Positions 20,050-45,685 of a stretch of 64,000 nt of DNA are shown piece after piece. The translations under genes were made by a program, and so were the position numbers. The notes under the pieces are model-generated. The model saw only the letters and a list, made by a program, of their open reading frames with translations. It searched no databases and was not told the origin of the DNA. The stretch is from an uncultured delta proteobacterium. GTDB taxonomy: Bacteria; Myxococcota_A; Polyangia; Haliangiales; Haliangiaceae. The stretch is from positions 160,001-224,000 of the forward strand of contig CAVUQH010000002.1 in assembly GCA_963743525.1 (NCBI GenBank), read 5' to 3'. The stretch's first letter is position 1. Each line of letters begins with the position of its first letter.

Positions 20050-20907
20050 CTAGAAGTAGAGGATCGCCGCGAGGCGCGCGCGGGTGTAGCGCTCGGCCTG
20101 ATTGTTGCCGGTGTCAACCGGCTGGCCGCTGCCGCCGAAGGCGACCGCGCTGGGCTGGTTGACGTCGTGGGCGCCGGCGCGGAGGTCACCGGCGATGTGC
20201 AGGCGATGGGTCAGGCGCCAGGTGAGACCCGCGCCGACTTCGGCATAGGCGCCGCCGTCCCAGCTGCCGAGCGCGCCCAGGAGCTGCGGCGAGATCGTCG
20301 ACCGCGACGCCAGGTCCCACACCAGGCCACCGCCGATGCGGCGGGTATCGCCGCTATCGGCACGGGTGCGCGACAGCTCGCCCTCGAGGGCCAGACCGCG
20401 GGTCATGCGGAAGCGGCCGAACAGGCCCAGATCGTCACCGCTGGTGTCGGCGGTCTTGACCCCGCCGGCGAACACGCCGAGGCCCAGGCGCGGCCCCATC
20501 GGCTCGATCACCGGCGGCGGCGCGACCACGACCGGCGGGTTGGCCGGCGGCGGCGACGAGTAGTAGTAGGCGGGGACGTCGCAGTCGTACGACGGAGGCG
20601 GCGGAGGCGGCGGAGGCGTGGCGTAACCGCCCACGTAGACCGAGCCGCCCAGATAGACGCCGCCGCGAATGTGCAACCGAGGCCGGGGCCGCGGTGTCAC
20701 GTAACCCCGATGATCCCGGACGACCACCCGCCCGGCGCCGCGAACGTGGACGCGGACATGGGGCACGCGAACGTGCACGGAGCCGCGGACTCGCACGCGG
20801 ACGTCGGCCGCGGCGTCGCCCGAATGGGCGAGGAGCGGCAGCGCAAAGGCGGCGGCCAGGCCGCCAATGGCGAGCGCGTGAAGGGGTCGGCGGAGAAGCT
20901 GATTCAC
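20050..20907 (-). CDS. Exported Pro-rich protein with C-terminal outer-membrane beta-barrel
   Basis: Signal peptide, VRVRV and poly-Pro segment, alternating beta-strands, terminal aromatic residue (ILYF). Confidence 0.65.
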   Translation of the reverse strand: MNQLLRRPLHALAIGGLAAAFALPLLAHSGDAAADVRVRVRGSVHVRVPHVRVHVRGAGRVVVRDHRGYVTPRPRPRLHIRGGVYLGGSVYVGGYATPPPPPPPPSYDCDVPAYYYSSPPPANPPVVVAPPPVIEPMGPRLGLGVFAGGVKTADTSGDDLGLFGRFRMTRGLALEGELSRTRADSGDTRRIGGGLVWDLASRSTISPQLLGALGSWDGGAYAEVGAGLTWRLTHRLHIAGDLRAGAHDVNQPSAVAFGGSGQPVDTGNNQAERYTRARLAAILYF

Positions 20908-20970
20908 AGGGTCGTCCTTTCTGGCCGGGTCTCTAGCCTAGGTACGCACGAGACTGGCGGTTCGATTCAA

Positions 20971-20988
20971 ATGCACGCCGCGCGCCAT
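20971..20988 (-). promoter_or_regulatory. Putative sigma54 -24/-12 promoter
   Basis: Minus strand ATGGCGCGCGGCGTGCAT = GG-N10-GC, about 65 nt upstream of the start at 20907. Confidence 0.5.
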
Positions 20989-21156
20989 CATGACGGGGCC
21001 GCGCGCCGGGCGCCGGGCCGAGTGATTGCGAGGCGTTGCACCAGGGGAACGAGATGCGCCGGCGGGCCTTGCGTGAACCCGCCTTCACAGCCTGCGTGGC
21101 CCCTGTGCAACAGCCCCCTCGCACGGCCGCAGACCATTGGAATGCTTGTGCTATCC

Positions 21157-21185
21157 TTGACAGCAAAATCCTGCACCTATATCGT
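21157..21185 (+). promoter_or_regulatory. Sigma70-type promoter
   Basis: TTGACA-N17-TATCGT upstream of the GGGAGG RBS and TTG start at 21210. Confidence 0.65.
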
Positions 21186-21209
21186 CCCGTCTCCGATTGG
21201 GAGGTCCCC

Positions 21210-22415
21210 TTGAGCCAGTCCGCGAAACGCCCGGGCGTGCGTGATATCAGTGATCTGAAAGCCCGTCTGGGATTGAAGAAGGCGGCGCCGGCGAAGCCCG
21301 CCCGCGGCGTCGTGCCGCCCCCAGGCGTGAAGGGCTCCGTGCCCGCCCCTCCCGGCGCTCAACCCGCCGGACCCAAGGTCTCCGATGATCCCTTCGGCGC
21401 GCTGAACGCCGCCGCGACCTCTGCCGCCCGTGCGCCAGCTCACCACGGGCCGGAGATCGTCGTCATCGAGAAGGGCGAAGCGATCGAGAGCGTCGAGCAC
21501 AAGGGCGCCGCGATCCGCTTCGCCAAGATCGCCGGCCTGGTCCTGATCCCGCTGATCGTCGGCGTGGCCATCGGCGAGATCGGCACCAACTCCAAGCAGT
21601 TCAACCGCACGATTCACGACGCCGGCAAGATCGCCAAGGAGATCACCAAGGGCCGCAAGTCGCTCAAGGGCTACCAGTACGCGTTCCAGAACGCGGCCGA
21701 AGGCGGCTTCAAGAGCTTCGACCCCGATCTGACCAAGAAGCTGGAAGCCGTCGAGGCCTCGAGCTTCGACGACTCGGTGATCTACAAGTCCTGGCTCTAC
21801 GAGCTGGATCCCGATCTGGTCGCCGACACCCTCTACTTCGCCAGCGAGCAGACCAAGCTCATCAAGGACATCAAGGCTCACATCACGCTCACCAAGCGTG
21901 ACGAGAAGTACTTGCTGGAAGCCAAGGCGAACAAGAAGAAGTCGGCGCCTCCGGCGAACGACACCGGAACGCAATACACGGCGTATCGCTACGCCATCAT
22001 GGTCCAGGTTCCCTCCGAGCAGGAAGCGCAGCAGGGCAGCAAGCCGTTCGGCACTCAGGTGGTCGAGCTGGGCATGCCCTACTGTGGCGACAAGCTGAGC
22101 GAGACCGGCGACTGCGGCACCTCGTCGCCGACCGCCTTCGCCTACCGCACGGGCCCCGACGAGCCGTGGAAGAAAGGCGAGCCGCAGCCCGCCGCCGGCG
22201 CCCTCGAGGACGGCAAGCTGATGCTGATCCTGCCCGACGGCACCATGGAAACCCTGGCCCGCGGTACCAACCCCGCCTACGCCGAGAAGGAGTACCTCGA
22301 GCGGGTGAAGAACCTCGCCGAGAAAACCTCCGAGCTGGTCGAGCTGGCGGGCAAGCTCGAGAACGACCTCAAGGCCAAGTCCGGCGCGGGCGAGAAGTTC
22401 ACCTTCTTCCTCTAG
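21210..22415 (+). CDS. Hypothetical single-pass membrane protein (Pro-rich N-terminus, helical exported domain)
   Basis: RDISDLKARLGLKK start, TM IAGLVLIPLIVGVAIG, strong GC3 codon bias. Confidence 0.75.
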   Translation: MSQSAKRPGVRDISDLKARLGLKKAAPAKPARGVVPPPGVKGSVPAPPGAQPAGPKVSDDPFGALNAAATSAARAPAHHGPEIVVIEKGEAIESVEHKGAAIRFAKIAGLVLIPLIVGVAIGEIGTNSKQFNRTIHDAGKIAKEITKGRKSLKGYQYAFQNAAEGGFKSFDPDLTKKLEAVEASSFDDSVIYKSWLYELDPDLVADTLYFASEQTKLIKDIKAHITLTKRDEKYLLEAKANKKKSAPPANDTGTQYTAYRYAIMVQVPSEQEAQQGSKPFGTQVVELGMPYCGDKLSETGDCGTSSPTAFAYRTGPDEPWKKGEPQPAAGALEDGKLMLILPDGTMETLARGTNPAYAEKEYLERVKNLAEKTSELVELAGKLENDLKAKSGAGEKFTFFL

Positions 22416-22506: not shown

Positions 22507-24032
22507 TCAGTGTCGGCCGGCGCCAATGCTGACGAACCAGCGCAGGCCGTAGTCGCGTGTGGCGCCGCTAACGCGGCTGCCCGCGACTTCCATCGTCATA
22601 CCCACGTCGCCGGCGACCCCGCCGCAGATCCGCGGGACGAGCTCCGTCATCAACGAGAAGCAGCCGCCCGCGTAGGCGCCGATGCCGAATCCGCCAACGT
22701 TGTTCTTCGCCGGCGTCATCGGATTGTTGTCATCGTCCTGGCTCTCGGAGAGCAACGTGATCGGCACGGGCACCGGCCCCAAGGACACGCGCAGGGCATC
22801 TTGAGCACCAGCGCGCCGTAGATGAGCGGCACATGCGCGGAAACTCTGAGCGCGCTTCCGTGCAACTTGCCGACCCGGGTCTGCCAGGTGCCGAGGTCTA
22901 TGTGACTCAACGCGACCGCTCCCGCCCCGGCGGCACTGGCACGAGCACGGACGGAGGCTGCCGCAGGCGCGACTGCCGTCCGGGTCTCCGCAGCCGCGGG
23001 CATCGCCGTCGAGCGCGAAGCGAAGTGCCCGAGCTCGGCTAGCACGATGCACGAGCTCAGGGCGCGGAGGGCGAGCGTGAGGGCGAGCGTGAGGGCGAGC
23101 GCGAGGGCGAGTTTGCCTCCGACCAGGCTCAACGGATTGGGCGAGGTCGCTGCGTAGGTCTCGGGGCACCCGTCGTTCAGCTCGCCCCGCAAGCGCACTT
23201 TGTAGAAATGGGTATCGAGGACGACCGTGGCGACGCTCGGGCCGGAAAGCGAGAAGGGGTGCGTCGGTTCCTGGCCGCATGGCATCGAACGCAACTCCTC
23301 CCCTCCCTCGCGCTCCAGAAACGCACAACTCATCGGGGCGTCACTCGCGTCCAGGTTCTCGAATTTCGAGACGCTGATCGTCGCCTTGGTGACGGGGATG
23401 GACTGCTCGAATTTCCCGTATCGGACGACGAACGCTCGCTCGTCCACACCGAATCGCGCGATGCGCAGACATTTCTTGTCGCCCTTCAGCAATAGGGCGT
23501 CCCTTCCGCGTGACGTGTCCACCTTCAACGCGTCGGGGATGTGCATCACCTTTCCGCCGCGTTCCGGACAGGCCTGCAGAGTTCGCTGAGTCGAACTGGC
23601 GTAGAACGTCAGTTCGCCGGAAACAGCGTCCTTCTCCTTGAGCCCGAGAATCGTTCGGATCTGAGCCAGGTCGATTGCCCCGTCGCGCACGAAGGCAAAG
23701 GGAAGGCTCTGCCAGTCATCCTTCGCGCGGACCCACTCGTCGTCGAAGCTGATCGTGCAGGTCTGGCCACTCGCGTCCGTAACAGTCCAGGCGTACCCGT
23801 CCGACAGGCGCAGCGAGAAGGTGCCGTGCAGTTGCACCTTCGTCGGCGGCTGCAACGACTGATTGACGACCGTAACGGAGGCATCCGGTCGCACCGTTAC
23901 CTCTATGAGCGCCGGCCCTTTCAGGTTAACCTCCACGCCAGGTGGACAACCCCTGGGATCCGCTACTGCGGAGCCTGCCAGGAATACGAGCAACGCGCAG
24001 GACAGCACTGCGCATAGAGCAACTCTAAGCAT
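22507..24032 (-). pseudogene. Exported hypothetical protein with atypical composition, frameshifted at about 22795 (or assembly error)
   Basis: Signal peptide MLRVALCAVLSC...; adding one C to the CCC run (plus-strand ggg 22794-22796) joins the frames as ..KMPLRVSLGPVP..YGLRWFVSIGAGRH. Confidence 0.5.
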
Positions 24033-24317
24033 CCCCTCCCCTTTCATCGGCCCGCATGGGCCAAGTCGTTTCCAACTGCGCTTGGAGCCCCGAGTTGATC
24101 GTGGCCCGGGATCGAGCCGAGGCTCAACCCTGTGGGGAGGATTTTCCGGCGTCGGCGCGAAGCCAGCGATCTACCGACCCGCAGCTACGGGAGATGCCGG
24201 ACACGGCGTCCGGGAGAACACCTGGACTGTCGCGGGCGAGACCAGCCCGCGCCCACCGATTGTGGCGAGCACACCAGCCCGACCATCCTGGCCAAGCCGG
24301 TTACACGTGATCGTGTC

Positions 24318-25817
24318 CTACGGGTTGATCGGGATGTCGGTCGGGTCAACGAAGTCCTTCACCGGCGTCCCATCCGCCCGCTCGACCACCAGGCTCGAGC
24401 TCACGACGTTGGAGAACACCAGGTCGAATCGCGTCCCCGCGGGCAGCGTGCCGCCACCAGCCGGAGCCGGCGCGGTGAAGCGCCAGTACTTGGTGTAGCC
24501 GGACCGATGCGCCAGTCCGGGCGGCTCGGGCTCGTTGGAGTAGAAGACCACGTTGTAGCAGTCGGCGTTGCCGCGCTCGTTGGGCGCATCGCCGATGACG
24601 CCGGTAGTGGTGATGTCGGCGAGGTTGGCGTTGAAGAACAGCACGCAGTTGCCGCCCGACAGCGAGATCGCGTTGCCGCCGCCAATGCCGATCGGCTCGG
24701 AGAACTCGACGTCAACCGTCTGCGTGGCCGCGTCGCGGACGACATTCGACACCGTGACATCGCCGACGCCGGCGGTGAAGAACGCGCCGGAGAAGTCGCC
24801 CTCGACCAGGGTGTCCCCGACGTTGGCCACCGCGTGGATGACGATGTTGTACTCGTTGCCCGGCGACAGCGGATTCTGGCCGAAGCCGATCGACAGGTTG
24901 TCGTCGCTGGGCGTGACGGTGGGCTGATTGGACAGCGGAGTGCCGGCCTCGTCCATGACCGTGACGGTGGCATCCACCAGCGGAAGATTGAAGGCGACGT
25001 GGATGGTGTCGCTGATGCCGACCACGGTGCCGGTCGTGCTCGAGCCGGGCGGGTTGTACAGGTCGGCGACCGTGCTGGCGCGGATCGACAGCGACGCGGC
25101 CAGGTTGGGATCGAGGATGACGTCGGGCGATGGGTCGCCGTACGCGCGCAGGTTGACCGTCTGCGAGCCGCCCGGGTAGACGAACAGGCCGTTCTCCTCC
25201 ACCGGCGGCAGGAGCAGTACGCCGGTCGGGTTGATGTCCGGGCTCAGGGCGTTGAACGGCGGCATACCGGTGAAGGTCGCGCGTCCGTCGGTGCCGGTGG
25301 TCGCGGACATCACCACTTCGCCGCCGTTGTGCGACAGCCCGCTCGAGAAATCGATGTACTGGACGAAGTGGCGCAGCGTGATCGGATACATGCTGACCGG
25401 CCGACCCTCGGTGTCGAGCACGCGGATCGTGTAGTCGCTGCCGGCCGCGATCAGCCCGATGCCCAAGGTGATGGTGTTGTGCGCGGGGAAGTTGCCGGCG
25501 GTGTCGTCGAGAAACCCGTGGATGAACGCCTGCTGGTAGCCGGCATCGGTGGGGCCGTCGATCATGATCAGCACGTCACCGGCGCGGACATTGTTGATCG
25601 AGAAGTGGCCGTCGGCCTTGGTCGTCGTCGGCCCCTTGGACTCGCCGCCGGCGATGACCGAGACGGTCGCCCCTTCGAGCGGCATGCGCGTGACCGCGTC
25701 CACCACCAGGCCGCCGATCGACCCGCGCGGCACGGTGTTCTGGACGTCCAGAGAATCGCCGCAGGCGCCGGTCGAGATCAGTGCCAGGATGGCCAGGCTT
25801 CGCAGGGTCGTGGACAT
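24318..25817 (-). CDS. Lipoprotein with carboxypeptidase-regulatory-like and Ig-like (Big) domains
   Basis: GGAGA RBS; lipobox ISTGAC; GSIGGLVVDAVTRMPLEGATV; VAFNLPL and VEFSEPI Ig-like motifs. Confidence 0.75.
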   Translation of the reverse strand: MSTTLRSLAILALISTGACGDSLDVQNTVPRGSIGGLVVDAVTRMPLEGATVSVIAGGESKGPTTTKADGHFSINNVRAGDVLIMIDGPTDAGYQQAFIHGFLDDTAGNFPAHNTITLGIGLIAAGSDYTIRVLDTEGRPVSMYPITLRHFVQYIDFSSGLSHNGGEVVMSATTGTDGRATFTGMPPFNALSPDINPTGVLLLPPVEENGLFVYPGGSQTVNLRAYGDPSPDVILDPNLAASLSIRASTVADLYNPPGSSTTGTVVGISDTIHVAFNLPLVDATVTVMDEAGTPLSNQPTVTPSDDNLSIGFGQNPLSPGNEYNIVIHAVANVGDTLVEGDFSGAFFTAGVGDVTVSNVVRDAATQTVDVEFSEPIGIGGGNAISLSGGNCVLFFNANLADITTTGVIGDAPNERGNADCYNVVFYSNEPEPPGLAHRSGYTKYWRFTAPAPAGGGTLPAGTRFDLVFSNVVSSSLVVERADGTPVKDFVDPTDIPINP

Positions 25818-25837
25818 GGTCTCTCCTTGTAGTCGAA

Positions 25838-27121
25838 TCAGAACCGCAGCACCGGCAGGATGCTGACCTTCTCTCCGTTGCTCAGGCCGTGGGTGGCGAT
25901 ACCGACCACCACCGCGACCACTACTACCCCGGCGGCCGCGCCGACCGCCGGCCAGAAGTATTTGTGCTTCCAGATGGGCGGCTTCTTGGGACCCAGCGCG
26001 ATGCTCGGCTTCCACGTCACCGTCGCCATCAGCTGCCCGCCGAGCTCCTCGGCATCGGGGCCGGTGCGCGGCAGCGTATCCTCGCTGCGCCCGACCAGCG
26101 CGCCGCTGCGCAGGTCGTAGACGTAGGCGACGATCCCAATCTCGTCGCCGTGGGCGGTGGGCAGCGCCAGCACCAGCGCGTCGGCGCCCAGGTTCTTGGC
26201 CGCCCGCGCGATGGCCGGCGCGGCGTGAGGCCTGCCGACGTCGCCGCGGGTCTTGGCCAGTGGGCCGCGGTCGACGCTCTTGGGCGTCTTGACCGCGACC
26301 TTGACCGTGACCACGTCACCGCCGCCGGCGACCTGGCCGATCGCGATCACCGGCTCGGCACCGGGCGTCACCAGCGACACGACGTTCGGCCCGGCGGGCA
26401 GATCCTCGACCGTCACCGGTGCGGTGCCGCGGTCGACACCATTGATGTAGACCGTCGCCTTGCCGGCGCCGTCGGCCTCGACGTGAACCGTGCCGCGCCC
26501 CAGCTCGTCGTGGTAGAGGCGCTCGTTGACCACCAGTTTCTCGAGCTGCGGCGGAAAAATCGTGCGGTCGTAGTCGAGGTCCGGGTCGAGCACGAACGCC
26601 TTGCGCAGCGCCTCGGTCGCCGACTGCTCGTCGCCATTGAGATAGCTGGCGATGGCGGTCCGCTCGTAGACCTCGATCAGCTTGCCGGCGTTGCCGTCGC
26701 GCGCCATCAGCTGCGGCAGGTAGCGCTGATACTCGTCGGCCGCCCAGTCGAGGAGGTCGAGGGCGCCGTCCTCGAGATTGCGCATCCGCTTGATCGCCTC
26801 GGCCAGCCCTTTGTCGCTGCGCTCCAGCGCTTTCTCCGCGGCCTCGGAGATGGCCCCTTCCGGGGTGGCGGCGGCAACGTGGGCGCCGTGCATGGCTCTG
26901 CCGACGCCTCTGGTCAGGGAGCGCTCGATGGCCCGCCGCTCGGCTTCGCTCAGACCGTCGGCGGCATAGGCCTTGACCACCACGTGCCGCGGCGCGGACG
27001 GCGCTCCGGCGGCAGCCGACGCGGCGTTCCCGAGCAGCACCATCACGGCCAGCGCGGCGGCCGCTCCCCCTCGAACCAGCACCGCGGGCGATGGTACGCA
27101 CCCGTTGAACGGGCGCGTCAA
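25838..27121 (-). CDS. PEGA-domain exported protein with C-terminal membrane anchor
   Basis: ATVYINGVDRGTAPVTVEDLPAGPNVV PEGA motif; PIWKHKYFWPAVGAAAGVVVVAVV tail. Confidence 0.8.
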   Translation of the reverse strand: MTRPFNGCVPSPAVLVRGGAAAALAVMVLLGNAASAAAGAPSAPRHVVVKAYAADGLSEAERRAIERSLTRGVGRAMHGAHVAAATPEGAISEAAEKALERSDKGLAEAIKRMRNLEDGALDLLDWAADEYQRYLPQLMARDGNAGKLIEVYERTAIASYLNGDEQSATEALRKAFVLDPDLDYDRTIFPPQLEKLVVNERLYHDELGRGTVHVEADGAGKATVYINGVDRGTAPVTVEDLPAGPNVVSLVTPGAEPVIAIGQVAGGGDVVTVKVAVKTPKSVDRGPLAKTRGDVGRPHAAPAIARAAKNLGADALVLALPTAHGDEIGIVAYVYDLRSGALVGRSEDTLPRTGPDAEELGGQLMATVTWKPSIALGPKKPPIWKHKYFWPAVGAAAGVVVVAVVVGIATHGLSNGEKVSILPVLRF

Positions 27122-27182
27122 GCGGTCGTCATCACAGGGGATCTCGCCCGACAGCCGCAGCGGGTCGAGCGACGCCGCGCGA

Positions 27183-28055
27183 CTACTTGCCCTTGGTCAG
27201 GGAGTCGATGGTGTTGGCGTTGGCCTTGAGGTCCGGCTCTTTGCCGTCGTCCTTGATCGCCTCGATGATGTTGTCCTTCTTGGGACCATCGGGGGCGTTG
27301 GCCTGACGCACGGAAGCCAGATCGGCCTCGGAATCGAGGTCGGAGATCGCCAGACAGAAGGCGCCGTACAGGCCCATCTTGTTGATCGCCTGGGCGTGCA
27401 GCTTCTTCGACCGCCACTCGACGCGGCCGTTGATGTCCGCGCCGGGACCGAAGCGGCTCTCCATCAGCTGGCGGAAGTAGTCGAAGCCCTTGTCCTCGGC
27501 GCCCGCGATCGCCGACGTGTTGAGGGCGAGGAACATCTTGTACAGACGGCCGCGGAAGAAGAAGAAGAAGCGGCGCTGGTCGCGGCCCTCACTGGTCTCC
27601 CAGTGGACCATCATCGCCTCGCCGGTCTTCTGCTTGAACTGGTCGTCGATGATCGACACGTCCCAGCCGGTCTTGTGGCCTTCGAACTCGATCCACGACT
27701 TGCGGAAGCGCTTGATCTCCTTGTCGCGCTTGCGCCGCAGCTTGTCCTGCGCGTAGACGTCGTCGGTGTTGGCGATGGTCTCGGCGTAGCGTTCCTTGAT
27801 CTGCTTGCCGACGACCTTGACGACGTCGTCCTTGCTCATGCCGAACTTGAACGCGCCCATGAACGCGTGGACCGCTTTGGCCTGCTCGGCGTTCATCATC
27901 GCCGGCACCGGCTTGGCCGGCGCCTTGGCCTTCTTCTTCTTCTTGTGGTGCCGACCGGCGTCCGCCGTTCCAGCCGAGATCACCAGGATCGCCGCCAGGG
28001 CAGTGGCCATGAGGCCCCAAGTCCGCGCACCACGCATCGCTTCAACCCTCCGCAT
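27183..28055 (-). CDS. Exported hypothetical protein (Lys-rich N-terminus)
   Basis: Signal peptide ..ISAGTADA, FKFGMSKDDV, RRFFFFFRGRLYKM; strong GC3 bias. Confidence 0.75.
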   Translation of the reverse strand: MRRVEAMRGARTWGLMATALAAILVISAGTADAGRHHKKKKKAKAPAKPVPAMMNAEQAKAVHAFMGAFKFGMSKDDVVKVVGKQIKERYAETIANTDDVYAQDKLRRKRDKEIKRFRKSWIEFEGHKTGWDVSIIDDQFKQKTGEAMMVHWETSEGRDQRRFFFFFRGRLYKMFLALNTSAIAGAEDKGFDYFRQLMESRFGPGADINGRVEWRSKKLHAQAINKMGLYGAFCLAISDLDSEADLASVRQANAPDGPKKDNIIEAIKDDGKEPDLKANANTIDSLTKGK

Positions 28056-28150
28056 ACTGAGCTCCCGGGAGCATAGCCCCCAAAATCCGGACCTACAAGG
28101 CGCTGACGTGCGGTGGGGCGGGGAAATTCAATAAAAATCCCGCGGCGTTT

Positions 28151-31139
<2,989 letters not shown>

Positions 31140-31251
31140 CGATTGTACCCCGGGGGTGGGCGATGAAAAACGGGCGGGCGAAACGGCAGCGGCGCGCGAT
31201 CCGGTTTGTGCCCCGGATCGCGCGCCGATTCACGAACGCTTTGACAATGCG

Positions 31252-32097
31252 TCAGCGGAGGGCGCGCTTGGCGACCTTGGCGGTGGCCCTGACCAGCGAC
31301 GACTCATCCTCTGTCGCCTTTTGGAGTACATCCGCCGACGCCAGATCACCGATCTGGCCCAGCGCCCACGCCGCGTTGCGGCGCACGACCGGGTCGGGAT
31401 CGTTGAGCACCTGCGCCTCGAGCGCGGCGCGGCCGGCCGGGTCGCGGAACTGGCCGATGCACGCGGCGGCCTTGCGGCGCACCTGGGTGTTGGCATCGTT
31501 GACCAGCGCCACTGCCGGGGCGGCGTTCTTCTGCCCGCGGATCTCGACCCACGCCGTGACCGCCTGCAGGCGGACGTCGGCGCTGGAGTCGGACATGCCC
31601 GCGGCCAGGGTGTCGTCGGCAGTGATGTAGCCGATGGTTCCCAGCGCGAACATGATGTGCGAGCGGGCCTCGTCCGACAGGCCGCTGCGCTGATACGCGG
31701 TGGCCAGCGGAGCGATCGCCTGCGGGTGGCGGAAGGTGCCGAGGGCGTCGGCGGCATTGCGCACCTCCACCGAGTTACCGGTGGCCAGGCGCTGCAGCGA
31801 CATCTCGGTGACCTGCTTCTTCTGCGCCGGACGGCGAGCCAGCCACCAGGCCGCGACTTCGCGGACGGCGTAGCGGTCGTCGTCGAGCAGCTTCATGACC
31901 GGCGCGACGCAGGCCGGGCAGATCAGGCGCTCGGCCTGCTCCAGCTCGCCGATGATCGACTCGACGCCGCCGGTGTTGATGGCCGTCATCACCCGGCTGT
32001 AGCTGCTGCCACGTCCGGCCTGGGCCGCCGGTGCCAGCGCAGCCAGCACCATCGAGCAAGTAAGGGTCGTGAGGACCTTTGCACTGTTGCGTTTCAT
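31252..32097 (-). CDS. Exported HEAT-repeat protein with CPAC motif
   Basis: Signal peptide ..APAAQA; VRNAADALG, VRRKAAACIG, VRRNAAWALG repeats. Confidence 0.85.
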   Translation of the reverse strand: MKRNSAKVLTTLTCSMVLAALAPAAQAGRGSSYSRVMTAINTGGVESIIGELEQAERLICPACVAPVMKLLDDDRYAVREVAAWWLARRPAQKKQVTEMSLQRLATGNSVEVRNAADALGTFRHPQAIAPLATAYQRSGLSDEARSHIMFALGTIGYITADDTLAAGMSDSSADVRLQAVTAWVEIRGQKNAAPAVALVNDANTQVRRKAAACIGQFRDPAGRAALEAQVLNDPDPVVRRNAAWALGQIGDLASADVLQKATEDESSLVRATAKVAKRALR

Positions 32098-32130
32098 GAT
32101 TCGTCTCCCTCTGATAGCGGTAGCCCGGGA

Positions 32131-34314
32131 CTACATTCCGTACGCGCCGCCGGGGGCGTTCTCACGCGAGTAGAACTGACCACCGAAGTCGCACATGCGC
32201 ACGAGCAGCGAGAACTCGTCCGGGGTCAGAGTGAAGCCCTGCTCCTGCCCGTGCGGCGTGGTCGTGAAGGCACGGACGCCGGTGTTCGGGGCCGGGAAGA
32301 GCTGGACGGGGTTGAGCTTCTGGATGAGCATCGAGTCGCGGGCGCTGCCCGGCTCGACGTAGGTCGGCGGGTTGCCGACGATGACCAGGTTGGTCTTCTC
32401 GAGCTTGGTCATCGACGGGCCCAGCAGCGACAGGTGCGAGGCGCTGTAGCCGGTCAGGATGTCGGCGCCGACGCCGTAGGTGACCGCCTGGCCGCGCAGG
32501 TCGAAGGTGATGGTCTGCGACTCACCGGTGACCGAGTCCATGATGGTGTAGGACGGGTTGGCCGGACCGGGGGTGCCGTCGTGGCAGCTGATGCACTTGG
32601 CGTCGAAGATCGGCTGCAGCGCCTCGTCCCACGGGATGCCGACGGTGCCGTTCAGGGTGAAGTCGAACGACGCGCGGTCGGTGCGGGCAACGGAGCTCTT
32701 CAGGTCGACCGGACCGACGGCGACCGCCTCGGTGATGCCGGGCTGGATGACGGTGGTCGCGGCGCGATCCTCGTGGCAGCCGCCGCAGAAGCGCGACTCG
32801 CCCGGGTTACCCGAGATCCACACCGGCTCGCTCTTGAGCGACATGCCGAACTTGTCGATGGCCTGGATGTGCATCGGGATGCCGGCCGGAGTGAGCGCCG
32901 CCCACGAGCCGTCTTCCTGGACCGGAACCGTGCCCAGCAGCGCGGCGCCTTCGAACTCGGACAGACCGAAGTCCTCGGGCACGCCCTCTTCCACCGAGAA
33001 GCCCTCGATGAGGCGGACGCCGTAGACCGAGCCCGGGTCGAAGTTGGCCAGGGTCGAGTCGTAGACGTTCATGGAACCGACGAGAACCTTGTCGGCGCCG
33101 TACTGGTGCTTGCCGGCCGACTCGATCTTGGGCGGCGCGGTGCGCGGAGCCAGAGGCCGCGGCTCGACGTCCCAGTAGTTCTCGTCGTTCCAGATCGGCT
33201 TGCGCGCGCCCTTCTTCGAGTCGTAGAGGTAGACGCCGAAGTCGGCGGTCACGCCGGCGGCCTCGAGGACCTCGGTGTTGACCGGGCCGTCCGCCCAGGA
33301 AACCAGCAGGTCCGGCTTCTCCTTGGCGTTCAGCGGATAGGCGTCGTAGTAGCGGCCGATGGTCGGCGCCGACGGCTCGCGGCCGAGCGGCACCTGCGGG
33401 GTCAGGATCTCGTAGGAGGCGTTGCGCTCGGCCATCTTGGTGTCGGCGGTGACGATGCCGTCCTGCTGGCTGACCTCACCCAGGCGGATGTCGAGGATGG
33501 TGCCCGACTGCAGGGTGCGGTCGCGCGCCGAGCCGATGGCGACCACGCGCCCCGGAGCGATCTCCTGGGCCTTGAAGTAGGAGTTGGTGACCCCGGTGCC
33601 CTCTTTGCCGAAGCCCTCGCGAGCGGTCGACAGGTCGGGGTTGAGGATCATCAGGCGGCCGGCGTTGTCCATGCCCAGGTGATCCCACTGGGTGATCATG
33701 ACGCGGCCGTCGGACAGCATGGTCGGGTAGACGCGGTGCGACAGGTTGCGCGCGCCGAGGGTCTCACCCGAGCCGTCCCGGTTGATGTAGCCGAGCTGCA
33801 CCGTGGTGCCGCGCTCGTACTCGTCGCGGAACTGCGGCGAGCCGTCTTCGGCCGACCGGTTGGTGACGAAGATGATCTTGTCGCCCGGGGCGAAGATCGG
33901 ATAGACGTAGTCGCGATTCGGATCCGTCGGCAGCTGCTCGATGGTGTTGTTGTCGAGCGACAGCACGAACAGGCCGTACCGCTGGTCCGACGACAGCCGC
34001 GCCGACATCACGATCTCGCGAGCGTCGAACGACAGGTCGTAGGCGCCGATGTCGATGTCGGCGTACTCGGGCCCGAACTTGCTGCAGCACAGCTCGGTGA
34101 GCGTGCCGTCGGCAGTCGGCGGGCTGAGCGACACCAGTCGTGCCGTCGGCATGTACGACGTGTATTGGAAGATGTCGCCGCCGACCATGCGGCGAGGCCG
34201 CTGGATGAAGACGATCGAATCGACGCCGTCGAGCGGGCCCTGGCTGTCCGAGCCGCAGGCGACTGAGCCGATGATGGCGGCAGAAAGGGCGATTCCTAGT
34301 GGTATCCGTTTCAC
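32131..34314 (-). CDS. HzsA-like diheme lipoprotein (beta-propeller, HZS-alpha middle domain, two CxxCH)
   Basis: AGGAGG RBS and GTG start; lipobox SVAC; LLGTVPVQEDGSWAALTPAGIPMHIQAID...GESRFCGGCHE; LQPIFDAKCISCH. Confidence 0.82.
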   Translation of the reverse strand: MKRIPLGIALSAAIIGSVACGSDSQGPLDGVDSIVFIQRPRRMVGGDIFQYTSYMPTARLVSLSPPTADGTLTELCCSKFGPEYADIDIGAYDLSFDAREIVMSARLSSDQRYGLFVLSLDNNTIEQLPTDPNRDYVYPIFAPGDKIIFVTNRSAEDGSPQFRDEYERGTTVQLGYINRDGSGETLGARNLSHRVYPTMLSDGRVMITQWDHLGMDNAGRLMILNPDLSTAREGFGKEGTGVTNSYFKAQEIAPGRVVAIGSARDRTLQSGTILDIRLGEVSQQDGIVTADTKMAERNASYEILTPQVPLGREPSAPTIGRYYDAYPLNAKEKPDLLVSWADGPVNTEVLEAAGVTADFGVYLYDSKKGARKPIWNDENYWDVEPRPLAPRTAPPKIESAGKHQYGADKVLVGSMNVYDSTLANFDPGSVYGVRLIEGFSVEEGVPEDFGLSEFEGAALLGTVPVQEDGSWAALTPAGIPMHIQAIDKFGMSLKSEPVWISGNPGESRFCGGCHEDRAATTVIQPGITEAVAVGPVDLKSSVARTDRASFDFTLNGTVGIPWDEALQPIFDAKCISCHDGTPGPANPSYTIMDSVTGESQTITFDLRGQAVTYGVGADILTGYSASHLSLLGPSMTKLEKTNLVIVGNPPTYVEPGSARDSMLIQKLNPVQLFPAPNTGVRAFTTTPHGQEQGFTLTPDEFSLLVRMCDFGGQFYSRENAPGGAYGM

Positions 34315-34345
34315 AACTGGCCTCCTGGTTCCCGGTCCCCTATAG

Positions 34346-34362
34346 AGCACGCTCTATGCCAG
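34346..34362 (-). promoter_or_regulatory. Sigma54 -24/-12 promoter overlapped by a perfect inverted repeat
   Basis: Minus strand CTGGCATAGAGCGTGCT (GG-N10-GC); ATAGAGC-AC-GCTCTAT at 34342-34357. Confidence 0.65.
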
Positions 34363-34499
34363 GAAATTCGCCAATGATTTCGTGACGAAGGTACCGGCCC
34401 GGGGGGCGCCCGCCCGCGGCCAGGCGAGTCCCGAGGGGGCGGTGGCCCCCTGGATTCGAGCGGTCAGCGGTCCGCCGGCAGCTGGTCAGCTGACGGTCG

Positions 34500-37145
<2,646 letters not shown>

Positions 37146-37228
37146 CGACCGGGGATACCGCGCCGGTCTGACACCCGCGGCGACCAGCCCGGAACCCCCG
37201 GGAAGGCCACCCTGGGGGCAGATCGCCG

Positions 37229-38359
37229 TCAACCGGGCACCTGCAGGTCCGAACCGCGCCAGACCGCACTGCGATAGCGCGAACCCTCGGCGCGGCGAAA
37301 CACCAGCCGGCCACCCACCCGCTCGACCCCCAGCCTGCCCTCGTGAATCAGGCGGTGATGCGTCGAGCAGAGCAGCAGCAGATTGCCCGGCACGTGCCCG
37401 CCGCCGCGAGCGCGCGGCCAGATGTGGTGCACATCCAGCCACGTCGCATTGCCGCAGCCCGGCACCGCACAGCGGTGGTGAAACGCCGCGACCACAGCCC
37501 GCCGAACCGCCGGCGGAATCGTCTGGCTGGCGCGGCCCTCGAGGGACGCCGGAACGCGAGTGTGGTCACAGTCGATCGCCGCGACCATCGCCGGATCGAG
37601 CTGCACACTGGCGCCATCGGCCTCGGCAAACACGCGCCCGCAGTCATCGCACCGACTGACCGCCACCTGATAACCCGGTCGGCCGGCATCACCGCCACCA
37701 CCGCCCGCGAGAAACCCACGCGCGATCATCGCCAGCGCCGCATCGTCATCGACCAGCCCATCGCCCGAGCCATGTCCCGAACCATCGCCCGACTGCCGCG
37801 CGACCCGGATCGCCTCCCGCACCATCGCATACGTCTCCGGCGAAACCTCGAACACCAGCGTCCGCGGCACCCGGCTGCGATCCGCGATCGCCCCCGGCCG
37901 CTCCCCGCGCGAAAGCCCCGCGACCCTCTCGGCCACCTCCCGCGCACGCTGCCCCTTCACGGCCGCCAGCCACGCCTCCTCCGTGTCGCCCGTGGCCACC
38001 CGCGACAGCTCCCGCACATGCGTCCAGGCGACCTGCCCCTCGGCCAGCGCTGCTTCGATCCCCGGCAACTCCGCCAGCACCAGCGCCGTGCGGATCCGCT
38101 CCCGCGCCGTCTTCCGCCCATACCCCAGCACCTCTTCGAGATACGCGGCATAGCTCGCGTGCCCATACGCCTCCCAGATCCGCACCGCATGCCCGGCACG
38201 AATCCAATGCGCCTCCACCGCATCGAGCTCCGCGCGATCGCGACCAATGGCGCGAAGCCGACCGTGAATCGCACCGACCTCGACCGCGACTTCCACCTCG
38301 ACACCAACGCCGGCACGAACCCCGACCCCGACAGCAGCGTCTGACGACAGCATCATCAT
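37229..38359 (-). CDS. HNH endonuclease (long DUF222-like type), probably mobile
   Basis: [51 protein letters not shown]-rich codon usage unlike neighbours. Confidence 0.88.
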
Positions 38360-38678
38360 GCAGCCTCCCGGCGCGGCAACAACCCATCGCCTGCGCGCAC
38401 CACTGTCATAGCACGCGTTTTTCGCCCGCTCGGATCACCCGCTCAGCACCACGCAGCGCCGACAAACCAACCGCGGGAGACAAAAACCGCATCGCCCCAC
38501 GCACACGCCGCACCCGCGCCAACACCGCGCCGCTGGCGATCGATCACCCGCGCGTTGGCGACGTGCGCCGAAATGGCGTCAAGCCGCGCGCGAAAAGAAA
38601 CGAAAAAAAGACCGCGCCCGGTCCGCCCGTCGCCCGCGTTCGACGACGAATCGGACCGCGCACCTGGTGCCCGCGGTT

Positions 38679-38706
38679 CGCCCTTCGACAAGCTCAGTGC
38701 GAACGG
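38679..38706. repeat. REP-like half element CGCCCTTCGACAAGCTCAGTGCGAACGG
   Basis: Resembles the widespread CCCTTCGACAAGCTCAGGG intergenic palindrome family; only one arm is visible here. Confidence 0.55.
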
Positions 38707-38775
38707 CATGGGGATTCGCGGCCGTCTCCGACCGCGGCAGGCACGGCGCCACTGGTCAGCCACGAGCACCGCAAG

Positions 38776-38924
38776 CCCCCCGCCGACCACGCGCCCCCGC
38801 CGACCACGCGCCCCCGCCGACCACGCGCCCCCCGCCGACCACGCGCCCCCCGCCGACCACGCGCCCCCCGCCGACCACGCGCCCCCCCGCCGACCACGCG
38901 CCCCCCCGCCGACCACGCGCCCCC
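38776..38924. repeat. Tandem array: 8 x GCCGACCACGCG separated by C5-7 runs
   Basis: Counted directly; no unique spacers. Confidence 0.95.
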
Positions 38925-40427: not shown

Positions 40428-41105
40428 CTACTTCACACGGGTAACGTAGGCGATGATCTTCTGTGCCGACTCGAAGTCGCGCTTGCCGCGGATGGCCCCG
40501 TCATAGCTGTCGTAGCTACCCAGCCGTACCCGGTACCAGGTGCCCTTGCCCGGCACGTCGGCCTCCGCGATGTACGGCTCGTAGCCGGCGTTGACCAGGC
40601 GATCGCGGAACGAATCGGCCTCTGCTCGGTCCTGGAACGACGACAGCTGCAGGGTCCAGGCGTGCTGGGAGCCGTGGCTCTTGTCGTCCACGACCTCGGG
40701 CTTGGGCTCGGGCGCCGGCTTGGCCGGCTTGGGCGCGGCCTTGGCCTCGACCTTGGCCGGCGCGGGTGCCGGCTTGGCCTCGGCCTTTTCCGGCGGCGGC
40801 GCCTGCAACACCTCGTCCACCGGCCCCAGCGGCTCATCGTCCTGGCCGGTCAGCGCCTGGGGAAACGACAGCTCCTCGTGGTTGGCGCTCAGCTCGTCCA
40901 GGGCGGCCAGCGGATCCTCGGATGCGGTCGTCGCCGCGCCCGTGGCCACGTGCGAGCGGGACTCGACCCTCTTGCCCACCATCACGCCCAGGACGAAGAC
41001 CAGACAGGCGATCACCGCCCCGCCGAAAAACAGGTAGAAGATCTGCCGTCCGTCCAGGCTGACCTCGACCTTGTCCTTGAACAGCTCGGGTTCGCTGCGA
41101 CGCAT
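40428..41105 (-). CDS. SPOR-domain membrane protein (FtsN/DedD-like)
   Basis: TM helix, Pro/Ala linker, [14 protein letters not shown]...WYRVRLGSY. Confidence 0.9.
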
Positions 41106-41155
41106 GCCGGCAGGGTCGCCCGATCCTTTGATCCGGGCAAATTTCTAGCGCCGGG

Positions 41156-44100: not shown

Positions 44101-44315
44101 GTGCACGAGATGACCGGCTGCGGACTGCGCACGACGGCTTGATCCGGCGTGGCCGGATCACCGTTGGTGATACGAAGGTCGCCCCAGCAGGCAAACGACA
44201 CCGCGCTGGGCCGGTCGAGGTTGAACACGCTGGTGGAGCTCTGGCTCTGTGCGCACGAGGTCGCGGCGGCGGCGACGGCGCAGGCGAGCCCGGCGCGGCG
44301 AAGGGCGGCGCTCAT
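41156..44315 (-). CDS. Large Cys-rich beta-propeller lipoprotein; +1 frameshift at about 41246 near the C-terminus
   Basis: Start MSAALRR (TGATG overlap); lipobox ATSC; VPVGTLPVDVA propeller motifs; removing one base extends the C-terminus to ..TQGQIYRLNPSEPGSGFSPTRIQNTTTSG*. Confidence 0.7.
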
Positions 44316-45685
44316 CACTGGCCCCCCGCCTGGCGCTCGCGGCCGATTTGCATGATGACGCGGTTCTCCGTAAACGAGCCGGGCTGGATGTCGATCACCG
44401 AGATGGTGTCCTCGAGGAAATTGGTCACGTACAGCCGGCCCCGGCCGGCGGCCAGCGCGGAGGCGTGGGCACCCCGGCCGACCGGAATGGTGGCGAGCAC
44501 GGTGCCGCGCTCGAGATCGAGGACCCACACCTGGCTGTCCTGGAAGCACGAGATGTACGCGCGCTCGCCCGCGCCCAGGTCGGCGACCTGGATCACCGAT
44601 GCCTCGCGGCAGATTTCGATCGCGTCGATCATGTCGTTGCGCGGCACCCCGTCGGGGCCCATCGTGGTGTCGACGATCTGCAGCGTCGGCGGATTGCGGT
44701 TGACCACGTAGGCGCGGTTGCCGTCGGCCGAGAAGGCGATCCCGCGGCTGTCGCTCGACGGGATGATGCGGTTGAGGAAGAAGAAGTCGCCCGGCGCCAT
44801 GGTCGGCTCGCCGTTGGCCCGGCGGTAGACGGACAGGGTGTGTACCCGCGACTCGGCCCGGGAGGTGACGTAGACCAGGTCGTCCACCGTGCCCGGCAGG
44901 CGACCTGCGATGCCGGTGGCGCCGCGCACGCCGGTGGTCGAGTTCTGGGCGAACAGACCGCCGATGGCGTCGGTCAGCAGCGGCGGAGTGCCGTCGGTCG
45001 GCGCGTCAACCAGCGACACCGTGCCCAGGGTCAGGTGGGTGACCATGGCGTAGCCGTTGCCGGAGTCGACGAACATCCCCCACGGCTCCTCGGACAGGCC
45101 GAGCTCGTCGGGGTTGTTGTGCAGGTGATCCAGCCGATGATCCTCGTCACACAGCGGGAACGCGCCGGTACCGCCGCATTCCATGGTCCGGTCGGTCAAC
45201 GAGTAGTCGATGTAGGTGATCGATGGATCGCCGCGGACCGGGACGAACAAGCGCAGGTCACCGCTGTCGAGCTGCTCGACTCCGACCGCGGCGGCGAAGT
45301 TGCCCAGTCGCCGGGTCGAGTCGGCCAGCACCATCGCCTTCTCGTTGCACACCAGGGTCAGCGGTGAATCGGCATCGACCTCGCAGCAGTCGGGGCAACC
45401 GGAGGGGTCGGCGGGCACTTGCATGCCCGGCAGCCACTGCCCGATCAGGCTTTCCACGACATCGAGATCCAGCACCGCGACCGAGCCGGAGTCATAGCGG
45501 AGCTCGGAGTTGGCGTTGGCGACGAACAGCACGCTCTCGTCCGGGGCGATGCCCAGGCCCGAGGGGAAGAACAGCTGGTCGGCCGGCGGCCTGACCTCTT
45601 CCGAGCTGGCCGGACACCCGGCTGCCGCCACGGCCAGCGCCGCGCAGATAATCCATTGAAATTTCGGGAACATTCTTCGCCGCAT
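44315..45685 (-). CDS. YncE/YVTN-type beta-propeller lipoprotein
   Basis: Lipobox AAAGC; RGIAFSADGNRAYVVN, IPVGRGAH, RLYVTNFLEDTISVID. Confidence 0.82.
   Translation of the reverse strand: MRRRMFPKFQWIICAALAVAAAGCPASSEEVRPPADQLFFPSGLGIAPDESVLFVANANSELRYDSGSVAVLDLDVVESLIGQWLPGMQVPADPSGCPDCCEVDADSPLTLVCNEKAMVLADSTRRLGNFAAAVGVEQLDSGDLRLFVPVRGDPSITYIDYSLTDRTMECGGTGAFPLCDEDHRLDHLHNNPDELGLSEEPWGMFVDSGNGYAMVTHLTLGTVSLVDAPTDGTPPLLTDAIGGLFAQNSTTGVRGATGIAGRLPGTVDDLVYVTSRAESRVHTLSVYRRANGEPTMAPGDFFFLNRIIPSSDSRGIAFSADGNRAYVVNRNPPTLQIVDTTMGPDGVPRNDMIDAIEICREASVIQVADLGAGERAYISCFQDSQVWVLDLERGTVLATIPVGRGAHASALAAGRGRLYVTNFLEDTISVIDIQPGSFTENRVIMQIGRERQAGGQ

What the first reader, a model, noticed from the sequence alone, without database searches (positions are those of the whole stretch)
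24318..34362. Sigma54-linked cluster with two hydrazine-synthase-alpha-like heme lipoproteins in a non-anammox myxobacterium
Seen in sequence: six co-directional, closely spaced exported-protein genes in the order diheme HzsA-like lipoprotein, HEAT/CxxC protein, 4-heme HzsA-like lipoprotein, unknown exported protein, PEGA protein, carboxypeptidase-regulatory/Ig lipoprotein. Established: anammox HzsA consists of a beta-propeller, a middle domain with heme alphaI and a C-terminal c-heme domain, and works with HzsB (propeller) and HzsC (MauG-like diheme). The 32131-34314 protein has the HzsA layout, but the cluster has no MauG/CCP-like gene and the window has no anammox genes. Inference: an uncharacterised envelope-anchored heme redox or sensing complex, perhaps a heterodimer of the two paralogues with scaffold proteins, and not hydrazine synthesis.
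Basis: partly seen in the sequence, partly recalled or inferred. Interest (0 to 1): 0.85.

Follow-up and report, generated by a model that had tools for sequence, protein, structure and literature searches.

The report
Myxobacterial flavin-tagged haem lipoprotein trio
Three neighbouring genes, kept together in many myxobacteria of the class Polyangia, encode two haem-binding lipoproteins distantly related to the anammox enzyme hydrazine synthase plus a helical-repeat partner; they likely form a cell-envelope electron-transfer enzyme, one chain of which is predicted to carry an attached flavin, rather than making hydrazine.

Summary
Real, but a three-gene unit rather than six. A1 (HzsA layout, two haem motifs), a HEAT/CxxC protein and A2 (four haem motifs, three with stretched spacing) travel together: A1 and A2 occur in the same 84 of 201 Polyangia genomes, adjacent in 72. 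The last two genes follow in only 6 of 34 loci. A2 is frameshifted in the window; this is most likely an assembly error. It is not hydrazine synthase: no Tyr591, scores far below the HzsA cut-off, no beta/gamma neighbour. Found here: a conserved sigma54 promoter with two GGGGG-N6-CCCCC boxes, and an ApbE flavin-attachment motif at the end of A2 (pattern kept in 36/36 orthologues; exact DxxTGAS form in 22/36). Related families sit beside ApbE, thioredoxin and DUF3570 genes, and all 84 carriers encode DUF3570. Best reading: a periplasmic flavin-and-haem oxidoreductase on the ApbE/DUF3570 envelope redox route; substrate not established. No structure could be predicted. This scan noted the cassette before in other genomes (five notes); my ten literature searches found no description of it.

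The parts
34433..34451 (-). Distal GGGGG-N6-CCCCC palindrome, about -90 from the -24 element; candidate binding site of a sigma54 enhancer-binding protein
   Evidence: GGGG-N4-9-CCCC within 130 nt of the promoter in 32 of 47 loci, 2.7 expected; 30 of 75 PWM sites at -93 to -90; position
34400..34418 (-). Proximal, more degenerate copy of the same box, about -57
   Evidence: 29 of 75 PWM sites at -62 to -56; position
34346..34361 (-). Sigma54-type -24/-12 promoter, 47 nt before A1
   Evidence: TGG-N9-TGC before A1 in 31/47 loci (4.1 expected); before HEAT 1/46, A2 2/45, unknown gene 2/25
32131..34314 (-). A1: 727-aa lipoprotein with HzsA layout: propeller, HZS_alpha middle domain with CxxCH (C510-H514), C-terminal haem domain (C574-H578, invariant H688)
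   Evidence: Pfam PF18582 52.6 bits; 5C2V_A profile match E 1.9e-22 over both ends; invariants from 36 sequences
31252..32097 (-). Exported HEAT-repeat protein, 281 aa, invariant E53 E56 C60 C63 R79 W84 W85
   Evidence: Pfam HEAT_2 95.5 bits; alignment of 36; directly after A1 in 45/45 loci (44 by rule, plus L009 where it overlaps the A1 end)
28151..31139 (-). A2: about 995-aa lipoprotein: three N-terminal haem domains (CX6CH, CX4CH, CX4CH, each followed by an invariant His in HxGG), propeller, HZS_alpha middle domain with CxxCH, no C-terminal haem domain. Split in the window by one extra base near 30430
   Evidence: one frame in 31/31 related loci scored, 28 distinct; contigs of three runs lack the base
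28196..28216 (-). DALTGAS: exact match to the ApbE flavin-attachment motif D-x-x-[S/T]-G-A-[S/T], starting 15 residues after the middle-domain haem His and ending 14 residues before the C-terminus; predicted FMN site
   Evidence: motif definition from PMC12052999
27183..28055 (-). Exported protein of unknown family, about 290 aa; frequent but not constant neighbour
   Evidence: No Pfam hit; unnamed Myxococcota clusters; 23/36 loci, none of the 8 loci L058-L068 that hold A1, inverted in L018 and L049
25838..27121 (-). PEGA-domain protein; loosely linked, not part of the conserved unit
   Evidence: Pfam PEGA 29.4 bits; with the next gene in 6/34 loci
24318..25817 (-). Carboxypeptidase-regulatory/Ig-like lipoprotein, about 500 aa; loosely linked
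   Evidence: Pfam CarboxypepD_reg 43.2 bits; 6/34 loci; start

Best explanation
A1, the HEAT protein and A2 are a conserved, sigma54-type operon whose products likely assemble into a membrane-anchored periplasmic oxidoreductase, in which A2 is predicted to carry a covalently attached FMN and four c-type haems and A1 two haems. Proposed working: reducing power comes from the envelope thiol/flavin route that these bacteria encode elsewhere (thioredoxin-like TlpA, DUF4266, flavinylated DUF3570, with ApbE as flavin transferase). A2's three His/His haem domains act as a wire or store. The FMN beside A2's middle-domain haem converts between two-electron and one-electron steps. The middle-domain haems, held by their own CxxCH His instead of HzsA's Tyr, sit against the propellers as the reaction sites; A1's invariant polar set (D164 E165 Y166, N190 S192 H193, W210 H212, N244, R264) is the likeliest substrate pocket. 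The HEAT protein, which stays with A1, scaffolds the complex or supplies a dithiol. My single best guess for the chemistry is reduction of a small oxidised molecule or metal complex at the envelope of these aerobic bacteria. Shown: gene set, motifs, conservation, promoter pattern, family context, co-occurrence. Inferred: haem and flavin binding, ligands, complex formation, direction of flow, substrate.
For: Strict co-inheritance: same 84 genomes, adjacent in 72 with a HEAT-sized gap of 864-1224 nt; broadly matching A1 and A2 subtrees. Invariant Cys/His sets for six haems and lipobox Cys. Flavin motif: D, L, A invariant and [TS], [ST] in 36/36 A2 rows, G in 22/36; same pattern at the same place in 5/5 relatives from other classes; exact form occurs 7 times in 1.74 million residues of the genome's ORFs. 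The variants without G (TQAS, TSAS, SSAS) are the ones seen in DUF3570 proteins of 29 loci, a family shown to be flavinylated (PMC8238504). A1-related proteins in 51 metagenome loci: ApbE 33, TlpA 30, DUF3570 29, plus a small CX4CH lipoprotein like A2's N-terminal domains. A2-like loci of other classes: ApbE 4/5, DUF3570 3/5. In this genome the same haem domain stands alone before DUF4266-DUF3570 at two loci. DUF3570 in 84/84 carriers against 48/117 non-carriers; in families f1, f10 and f71, 60/60 against 3/22. ApbE in 83/84. System I haem maturation genes present. Cytochrome oxidase CtaD in 83/84 carriers; only 1 of 40 CtaD-negative genomes carries A1.
Against: No ApbE, TlpA or DUF4266 hit in the A1/A2 loci searched, and DUF3570 in one only (L015); the link is by family context and co-occurrence, and related genomes are not independent. 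DUF3570 is in 34/34 genomes of family f18 but A1 in 11/34; ApbE is in 97/117 non-carriers, so that test is weak. ApbE beside relatives is already explained by DUF3570. A1 has the homologous T-x-A (T528, A530) without the Asp or the final Ser/Thr, so part of the A2 motif may be structural. 14 of 36 A2 rows lack the Gly of the published motif. The A1-related family with ApbE neighbours has no such motif itself (0/18). No FMN_bind Pfam hit. Haem ligands and pocket residues rest on conservation only. The metagenome loci are the best 80 of 583 for one peptide pattern, and 29 short ones were left out.
Confidence: 0.5

Rival explanations
1. A haem-based periplasmic sensor for O2, NO or redox state that signals to a membrane kinase and the sigma54 activator binding the two boxes.
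For: Dedicated sigma54 promoter and enhancer boxes; open-sided middle-domain haems could bind gases (inference); almost confined to CtaD-positive genomes.
Against: No constant kinase, EBP or chemoreceptor gene beside the unit in the loci read (Ser/Thr kinase genes occur nearby in varying positions); six haems and a flavin motif suit electron transfer; relatives lie in redox operons.
Confidence: 0.15
2. An accessory of cytochrome c maturation or quality control: the HEAT/CxxC protein is a chaperone or lyase-like factor for the stretched haem motifs, and the operon is co-regulated with ccm.
For: The same box plus a sigma54 site lies before ccmE-ccmF in this genome, one of 5 non-training hits among 117 promoters, about 0.1 expected; box present in 7 of 30 relatives' ccmE regions, all A1 carriers; weak similarity of the HEAT protein to bilin lyase families, far below cut-off.
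Against: 16 of 23 carriers lack the box before ccmE, and the 7 include two kin pairs; stretched motifs occur without a HEAT neighbour in solo A2 copies L059, L061, L065, in the five other-class loci and at three other loci of this genome; in G014 HEAT stays with A1, which has only CxxCH motifs.
Confidence: 0.12
3. An accessory of a proton-driven envelope machine (ExbB/ExbD motor with TPR proteins and outer-membrane barrels), with the haems in a regulatory or structural role.
For: A1-related operons run on into TIGR04565 barrels and TPR genes; a weak box (10.2 bits) precedes an ExbB-ExbD-ExbD-HEAT operon in this genome. That these resemble the Agl-Glt core of PMC3169522 is my recollection, not tested.
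Against: A1 was not found outside the class in 301 genomes of the phylum, although myxobacteria of other classes glide (recalled); no motor genes in the unit.
Confidence: 0.1
4. An alpha subunit pair that works with a beta/gamma-like protein encoded elsewhere and does hydrazine-synthase-like N-O or N-N chemistry.
For: This genome has a propeller plus MauG-like dihaem gene on contig C12; A2's closest outside relatives sit beside such genes in 5/5 loci; A1 likely keeps the His772 equivalent.
Against: That gene was found in only 12 of 84 carriers with this query and has its own tetrahaem neighbour; no Tyr at the Tyr591 position in 120 A1 homologues or 36 A2 rows; NF052339 scores 64 and 20 against 800; no hydrazine_beta match over cut-off.
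Confidence: 0.06
5. A six-subunit complex in which the unknown, PEGA and Ig-like proteins are scaffolds.
For: Six co-directional genes with short gaps here; the PEGA-Ig pair follows in 6 loci from more than one family.
Against: The pair is missing from 28 of 34 loci with enough room; the unknown gene is missing from 13 of 36 and inverted in two.
Confidence: 0.05

Closest known systems
Hydrazine synthase alpha subunit HzsA ('Ca. Kuenenia stuttgartiensis', PDB 5C2V chain A; Pfam PF18582; NCBIfam NF052339)
   Same: A1: propeller, middle domain with CxxCH, C-terminal haem domain with a His close to His772. A2: propeller and middle domain.
   Different: No Tyr591; lipoproteins; no beta/gamma neighbour; A2 has three extra N-terminal haem domains, no C-terminal one, and a flavin motif; hosts carry cytochrome oxidase.
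Non-anammox HZS-alpha homologues, clades I-IV of Hagglund et al. 2025 (PMC12758564)
   Same: HZS_alpha proteins outside anammox bacteria, lacking Tyr591, predicted canonical haem site, function untested.
   Different: Those were chosen for a neighbouring fused beta/gamma gene; His772 is reported absent in clade I. Here two alpha-type proteins of different subfamilies flank a HEAT gene. The main text has no Myxococcota, Haliangium or HEAT mention.
ApbE / DUF3570 / DUF4266 / thioredoxin-like flavinylation clusters ('DsbD systems', Meheust et al. 2021, PMC8238504)
   Same: Relatives of both A1 and A2 lie in such clusters; A2's motif variants match those of DUF3570; all carriers encode DUF3570.
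   Different: The genes of that system are not in this operon; no HZS_alpha or multihaem substrate appears in the passages read.
ApbE-flavinylated motif proteins (NqrC, RnfG, NosR, PceC; review PMC12052999)
   Same: Exact seven-residue motif near a C-terminus, where tagging works best according to the review.
   Different: No FMN_bind domain; motif sits directly behind a c-type haem; Gly often replaced.

Membership tests
Hydrazine synthase (HzsA) | HZS_alpha middle domain with CxxCH | tested here: met
   A1 52.6 bits; A2 fragment 24.4 and 27.2, intact orthologue 28.5; cut-off 26.6
Hydrazine synthase (HzsA) | Whole-protein score above the NF052339 cut-off of 800 | tested here: not met
   64.3 and 20.3 bits
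Hydrazine synthase (HzsA) | Tyr591 as proximal ligand, four residues after the CxxCH His | tested here: not met
   A, T, S, D, V, G or N in 120 A1 homologues; no Tyr in 36 A2 rows; HzsA position counted and PMC12607021
Hydrazine synthase (HzsA) | Zinc site His587 plus Cys303 | not tested
   That stretch did not align; needs a structure
Hydrazine synthase (HzsA) | C-terminal bis-His haem alphaII (His772) | tested here: inconclusive
   A1 has CxxCH and invariant H688 within a few columns of His772; A2 lacks the domain; ligation itself unverified
Hydrazine synthase (HzsA) | hzsB and hzsC genes in the same cluster | tested here: not met
   No PF03150 match in the window; no NF052340 match over cut-off in the genome; beta/gamma-like gene in 12 of 84 carriers, on another contig in this genome
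Hydrazine synthase (HzsA) | Host with HAO-family enzymes (hydrazine dehydrogenase) | tested here: inconclusive
   No PF13447 match, but the control genomes gave none either
HZS-alpha-like family outside anammox (PF18582 proteins) | TolB-like propeller plus HZS_alpha domain with haem motif, no Tyr591 | tested here: met
   873 representatives at E<=1e-30
ApbE substrate | D-x-x-[S/T]-G-A-[S/T] motif in an exported protein | tested here: met
   Exact in the window and in 22/36 rows; relaxed form 36/36 and 5/5
ApbE substrate | apbE in the genome | tested here: met
   One copy, contig C12; 83 of 84 carriers
ApbE substrate | Covalent FMN on the motif Ser | not testable with these tools
   Needs co-expression and in-gel fluorescence or mass spectrometry
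ApbE/DUF3570/DUF4266/thioredoxin cluster | The four genes clustered together | tested here: not met
   Absent from this locus; DUF3570 in one of the A1/A2 loci searched; present elsewhere in the genome

The most novel reading that the evidence does not exclude
A2 is a covalent flavocytochrome of a type not described: an ApbE-attached FMN next to a hydrazine-synthase-type haem site, fed by three atypically attached haems, and paired with a second alpha-type protein in place of the beta/gamma subunits. The HZS-alpha scaffold would then be a general terminal module of the ApbE/DUF3570 envelope redox route, from which anammox HzsA was recruited, and it could be studied in growable aerobic myxobacteria.
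Probability: 0.35. Interest if true: 0.78.

Novelty: new variant of a known kind. Interest (0 to 1): 0.58.

Why it matters
No HZS-alpha homologue outside anammox bacteria has a tested function (PMC12758564 reports none among its structural hits), and the origin of hydrazine synthase is an open question. This unit is usually single-copy, inherited as a block and widespread in Polyangia, so it offers a tractable handle on what the scaffold does without Tyr591 and beta/gamma. It gives three cheap tests: flavin on one named Ser, haem loading at CX4CH/CX6CH motifs that ordinary CXXCH scans miss, and an enhancer motif for finding the regulator and inducing condition. It also warns that PF18582 hits in myxobacterial genomes are not signs of anammox.

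Tried and rejected
Programmed frameshift or pseudogene in A2: rejected, since all 31 loci scored are in one frame and near-identical contigs of three runs lack the base. Recent duplication of A1 into A2: not supported by the quick, midpoint-rooted tree; the careful search did not finish and the outside rows were picked with the A1 profile. Obligate beta/gamma partner elsewhere: found in 13 of 201 genomes with one query, four candidates scored per genome. The enhancer box is not the NmpR site (GCGCA-N5-TGCGC, PMC11841059) nor the PexR site (CACCG-n6-CGGTG, PMC12754779); its activator was not identified. Co-regulation with ccm: seen here and in a minority of relatives only. A sigma70-like site before A2 (31169-31142): 1 found against 0.6 in shuffles, not counted; no terminator-like site on the coding strand between genes. 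D-P-x-T-G-A-[ST] in 9 of 36 A1 rows is not conserved and was rejected as a flavin site. An RNA-library contig spans the A1/HEAT junction (31995-32562), but contigs show neither a single transcript nor that the source was RNA. Habitat labels of runs with small shares were not used. HAO search uninformative. Protein Atlas gave only unnamed Myxococcota clusters for the 290-aa protein and generic HEAT clusters. Look-ups of earlier notes by place gave nothing, and one by words on flavinylation of this cassette gave nothing.
Full report
OBSERVATION. Six minus-strand genes lie between 24318 and 34314 in the order given. A1 (32131-34314) matches Pfam HZS_alpha at 52.6 bits, cut-off 26.6, and its only PDB sequence match is HzsA, 5C2V chain A (with a 36-sequence profile E 1.9e-22, matches at both ends). 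The HEAT, PEGA and CarboxypepD_reg labels hold. The genome (8.55 Mb, 97% complete) has two PF18582 matches, both in this locus. Related loci carry titles such as Kofleriaceae, Haliangiales and Polyangia.

THE FRAMESHIFT. The second haem gene is split in the window: its start (31139) and its C-terminal 759 codons are in different frames. In 31 of 31 related loci scored (28 distinct) the halves are in one frame at this junction; L042 has a different break further on. Contigs of runs X1 (814 nt, 4 other differences), X15 and X3 lack one base at 30430; in X1 and X15 this is all the depth, in X3 part of it (3 of 11.4, and 2.9 of 5.9 at 30429), and X2 does not cover the place. An assembly error is the likeliest cause.

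WHAT BELONGS TOGETHER. In 201 genomes of the class, A1 is found in 84 and A2 in the same 84 plus one partial paralogue hit. They are adjacent in 72, with 864-1224 nt between; 11 are split over contigs and one is separated. HEAT follows A1 in 45 of 45 loci and stays with A1 in the separated case. The unknown gene follows in 23 of 36 loci and the PEGA-Ig pair in 6 of 34. A1 was found in 25 of 301 genomes of the phylum, all in this class. Carriers encode cytochrome oxidase CtaD in 83 of 84 cases, but 78 of 161 CtaD-positive genomes lack A1. These genomes are kin, so the counts overstate independence.

ANATOMY. [quoted passage not shown] Counting in the 5C2V alignment puts His772 within a few columns of H688 and Tyr591 at A518; no Tyr stands there in 120 homologues. 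A2 has three N-terminal domains with invariant Cys/His pairs at CX6CH (longer in some), CX4CH and CX4CH, each followed by an invariant His (H122, H255, H374), then propeller and middle domain with CxxCH, and stops. A1 and A2 align over propeller and middle domain at 19% identity. In a quick tree of 53 rows A2 groups with proteins from other myxobacterial classes, not with A1 (SH-aLRT 100; midpoint root). Five such loci, of eight genomes hit, all have a propeller plus dihaem beta/gamma-like gene nearby. So the Polyangia unit pairs two old subfamilies and has no beta/gamma gene. This genome has a beta/gamma-like gene on contig C12, but it was found in only 12 of 84 carriers with that query.

REGULATION. 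TGG-N9-TGC precedes A1 in 31 of 47 loci (4.1 expected) and the downstream genes at chance level. Two GGGGG-N6-CCCCC boxes sit near -91 and -59 (32 of 47 loci against 2.7). Among 117 sigma54-type promoters of the genome, 6 have a box of 12 bits or more (control window 0, about 0.1 expected): A1 itself, which was in the training set, ccmE-ccmF and four lipoprotein genes. Before ccmE the box recurs in 7 of 23 carriers and 0 of 7 non-carriers, with two kin pairs among the 7: a lead only.

FAMILY CONTEXT AND THE FLAVIN MOTIF. A profile of A1 finds 873 representatives at E<=1e-30. An alignment of 18 outside relatives, many sharing A1's DEYER, NxSH and WxH motifs, fetched 80 metagenome loci. In the 51 of at least 7 kb, neighbours were ApbE (33), TlpA (30), DUF3570 (29), outer-membrane barrels and a small CX4CH lipoprotein homologous to A2's N-terminal domains; no HEAT or beta/gamma hit. 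The DUF4266 label for the small Cys-tailed peptide rests on the description in PMC8238504, not on a Pfam scan. The A2-like loci of other classes have ApbE in 4 of 5 and DUF3570 in 3 of 5. DUF3570 is in 84 of 84 carriers and 48 of 117 others, ApbE in 83 of 84 and 97 of 117. A2 ends with DALTGAS, the exact ApbE motif D-x-x-[S/T]-G-A-[S/T] of PMC12052999. D, L and A are invariant and both S/T positions kept in 36 of 36 rows; G is kept in 22. All five other-class relatives have the pattern at the same place, and the G-less variants are those of DUF3570 proteins. Against this: A1 has the homologous T-x-A without D or the final S/T, the 18 outside relatives have no motif, and ApbE neighbours are explained by DUF3570 alone. 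I put flavinylation of A2 at a little over even odds.

MECHANISM. The best-supported reading is a membrane-anchored periplasmic oxidoreductase: A2's His/His haems and FMN relay electrons between the thiol/flavin envelope route and the middle-domain haems, where a small substrate is most likely reduced; HEAT binds A1 as scaffold or dithiol partner. Gene set, motifs, promoter pattern and co-occurrence are shown; cofactors, complex, direction and substrate are inferred. Rivals are sensing, haem-maturation accessory, motor accessory and HZS-like chemistry with a partner elsewhere.

COMPARISON AND NOVELTY. It fails membership of hydrazine synthase (cut-off, Tyr591, beta/gamma) and meets that of the broad HZS-alpha-like family. 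Hagglund et al. (PMC12758564; I read parts 1-4 of 9 of the main text and searched the rest and one supplement) describe such homologues beside beta/gamma genes and do not mention Myxococcota or HEAT in the main text. The held supplement, cut when stored, lists Polyangium and Sorangium in one tree that I did not identify; its tables were not seen. Of PMC8238504 I saw passages; its gene-cluster table was not among the text held and may list PF18582 neighbours. PMC12607021, PMC12052999, PMC11334425, PMC11841059, PMC12754779 and PMC3169522 were seen as passages only; the original HZS structure paper was not seen. Ten searches showed no description of this cassette in listings or passages; subscription journals are mostly not covered. 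Five earlier notes of this scan describe the same three genes in other genomes and others the DUF3570-linked relatives. I saw them after forming those readings; their few lines do not mention the enhancer boxes or the flavin motif on A2.

VERDICT. A real, conserved, uncharacterised three-gene unit: a new variant of a known family, with a specific and cheaply testable flavin prediction. Interest 0.58.

Noticed in passing
G000:C12:272195-277260 (L075:10196-15262): A lipoprotein with four CX4CH-type haem domains like A2's N-terminal ones, followed by a propeller plus MauG-like dihaem protein (beta/gamma-like); an FHA-type regulator gene (label recalled) and a promoter with two enhancer boxes lie 2-4 kb away.
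   Followed up: partly
G000:C13:344486-347048 and C22:186627-189358: Single CX4CH/CX5CH haem-domain lipoproteins directly before DUF4266-DUF3570 gene pairs; the genome has seven DUF3570 matches.
   Followed up: partly
G000:C19:586108, C13:600453, C4:225664, C24:219340, C12:281261: Candidate regulon: sigma54-type promoters with the same box before ccmE-ccmF and four lipoprotein genes.
   Followed up: partly
L122-L201 (metagenome loci): A widespread operon joining an A1-related trihaem protein, a small CX4CH lipoprotein, two outer-membrane barrels (TIGR04565), TlpA, a CGCN-tailed peptide, DUF3570, ApbE and TPR proteins.
   Followed up: partly
L059, L061, L065; G025:C348; G026:C348; G472:C501: Extra copies of A2; the three fetched (L059, L061, L065) have no A1 or HEAT beside them.
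   Followed up: no
L009, L013, L015, L016 upstream of A1: In these loci the GC-rich boxes seem replaced by TTGCGCAA-type repeats, suggesting a different activator.
   Followed up: no
window 34500-37442 and 40428-45685: mutS lies in the same fetched locus as A1 in 21 of 44 cases, mostly directly upstream. Further up are a SPOR gene and two large unannotated propeller-type lipoproteins, also seen before mutS in L008, L011 and L045.
   Followed up: no
window 37229-38359 and 38400-38900: An HNH endonuclease gene and a stretch of short repeats lie between mutS and the next gene; the HNH gene is absent at this place in the same-genus genome G001.
   Followed up: no
window 22716-24047: A 443-aa ORF with lower third-position GC (0.77) and no family hit, absent from G001 at this place; likely a recent insertion.
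   Followed up: no
window 20050-22415: A divergent pair of unannotated genes (285 and 459 aa) follows the cassette in many Haliangiales loci, with a hydrolase and a Ser/Thr kinase.
   Followed up: no
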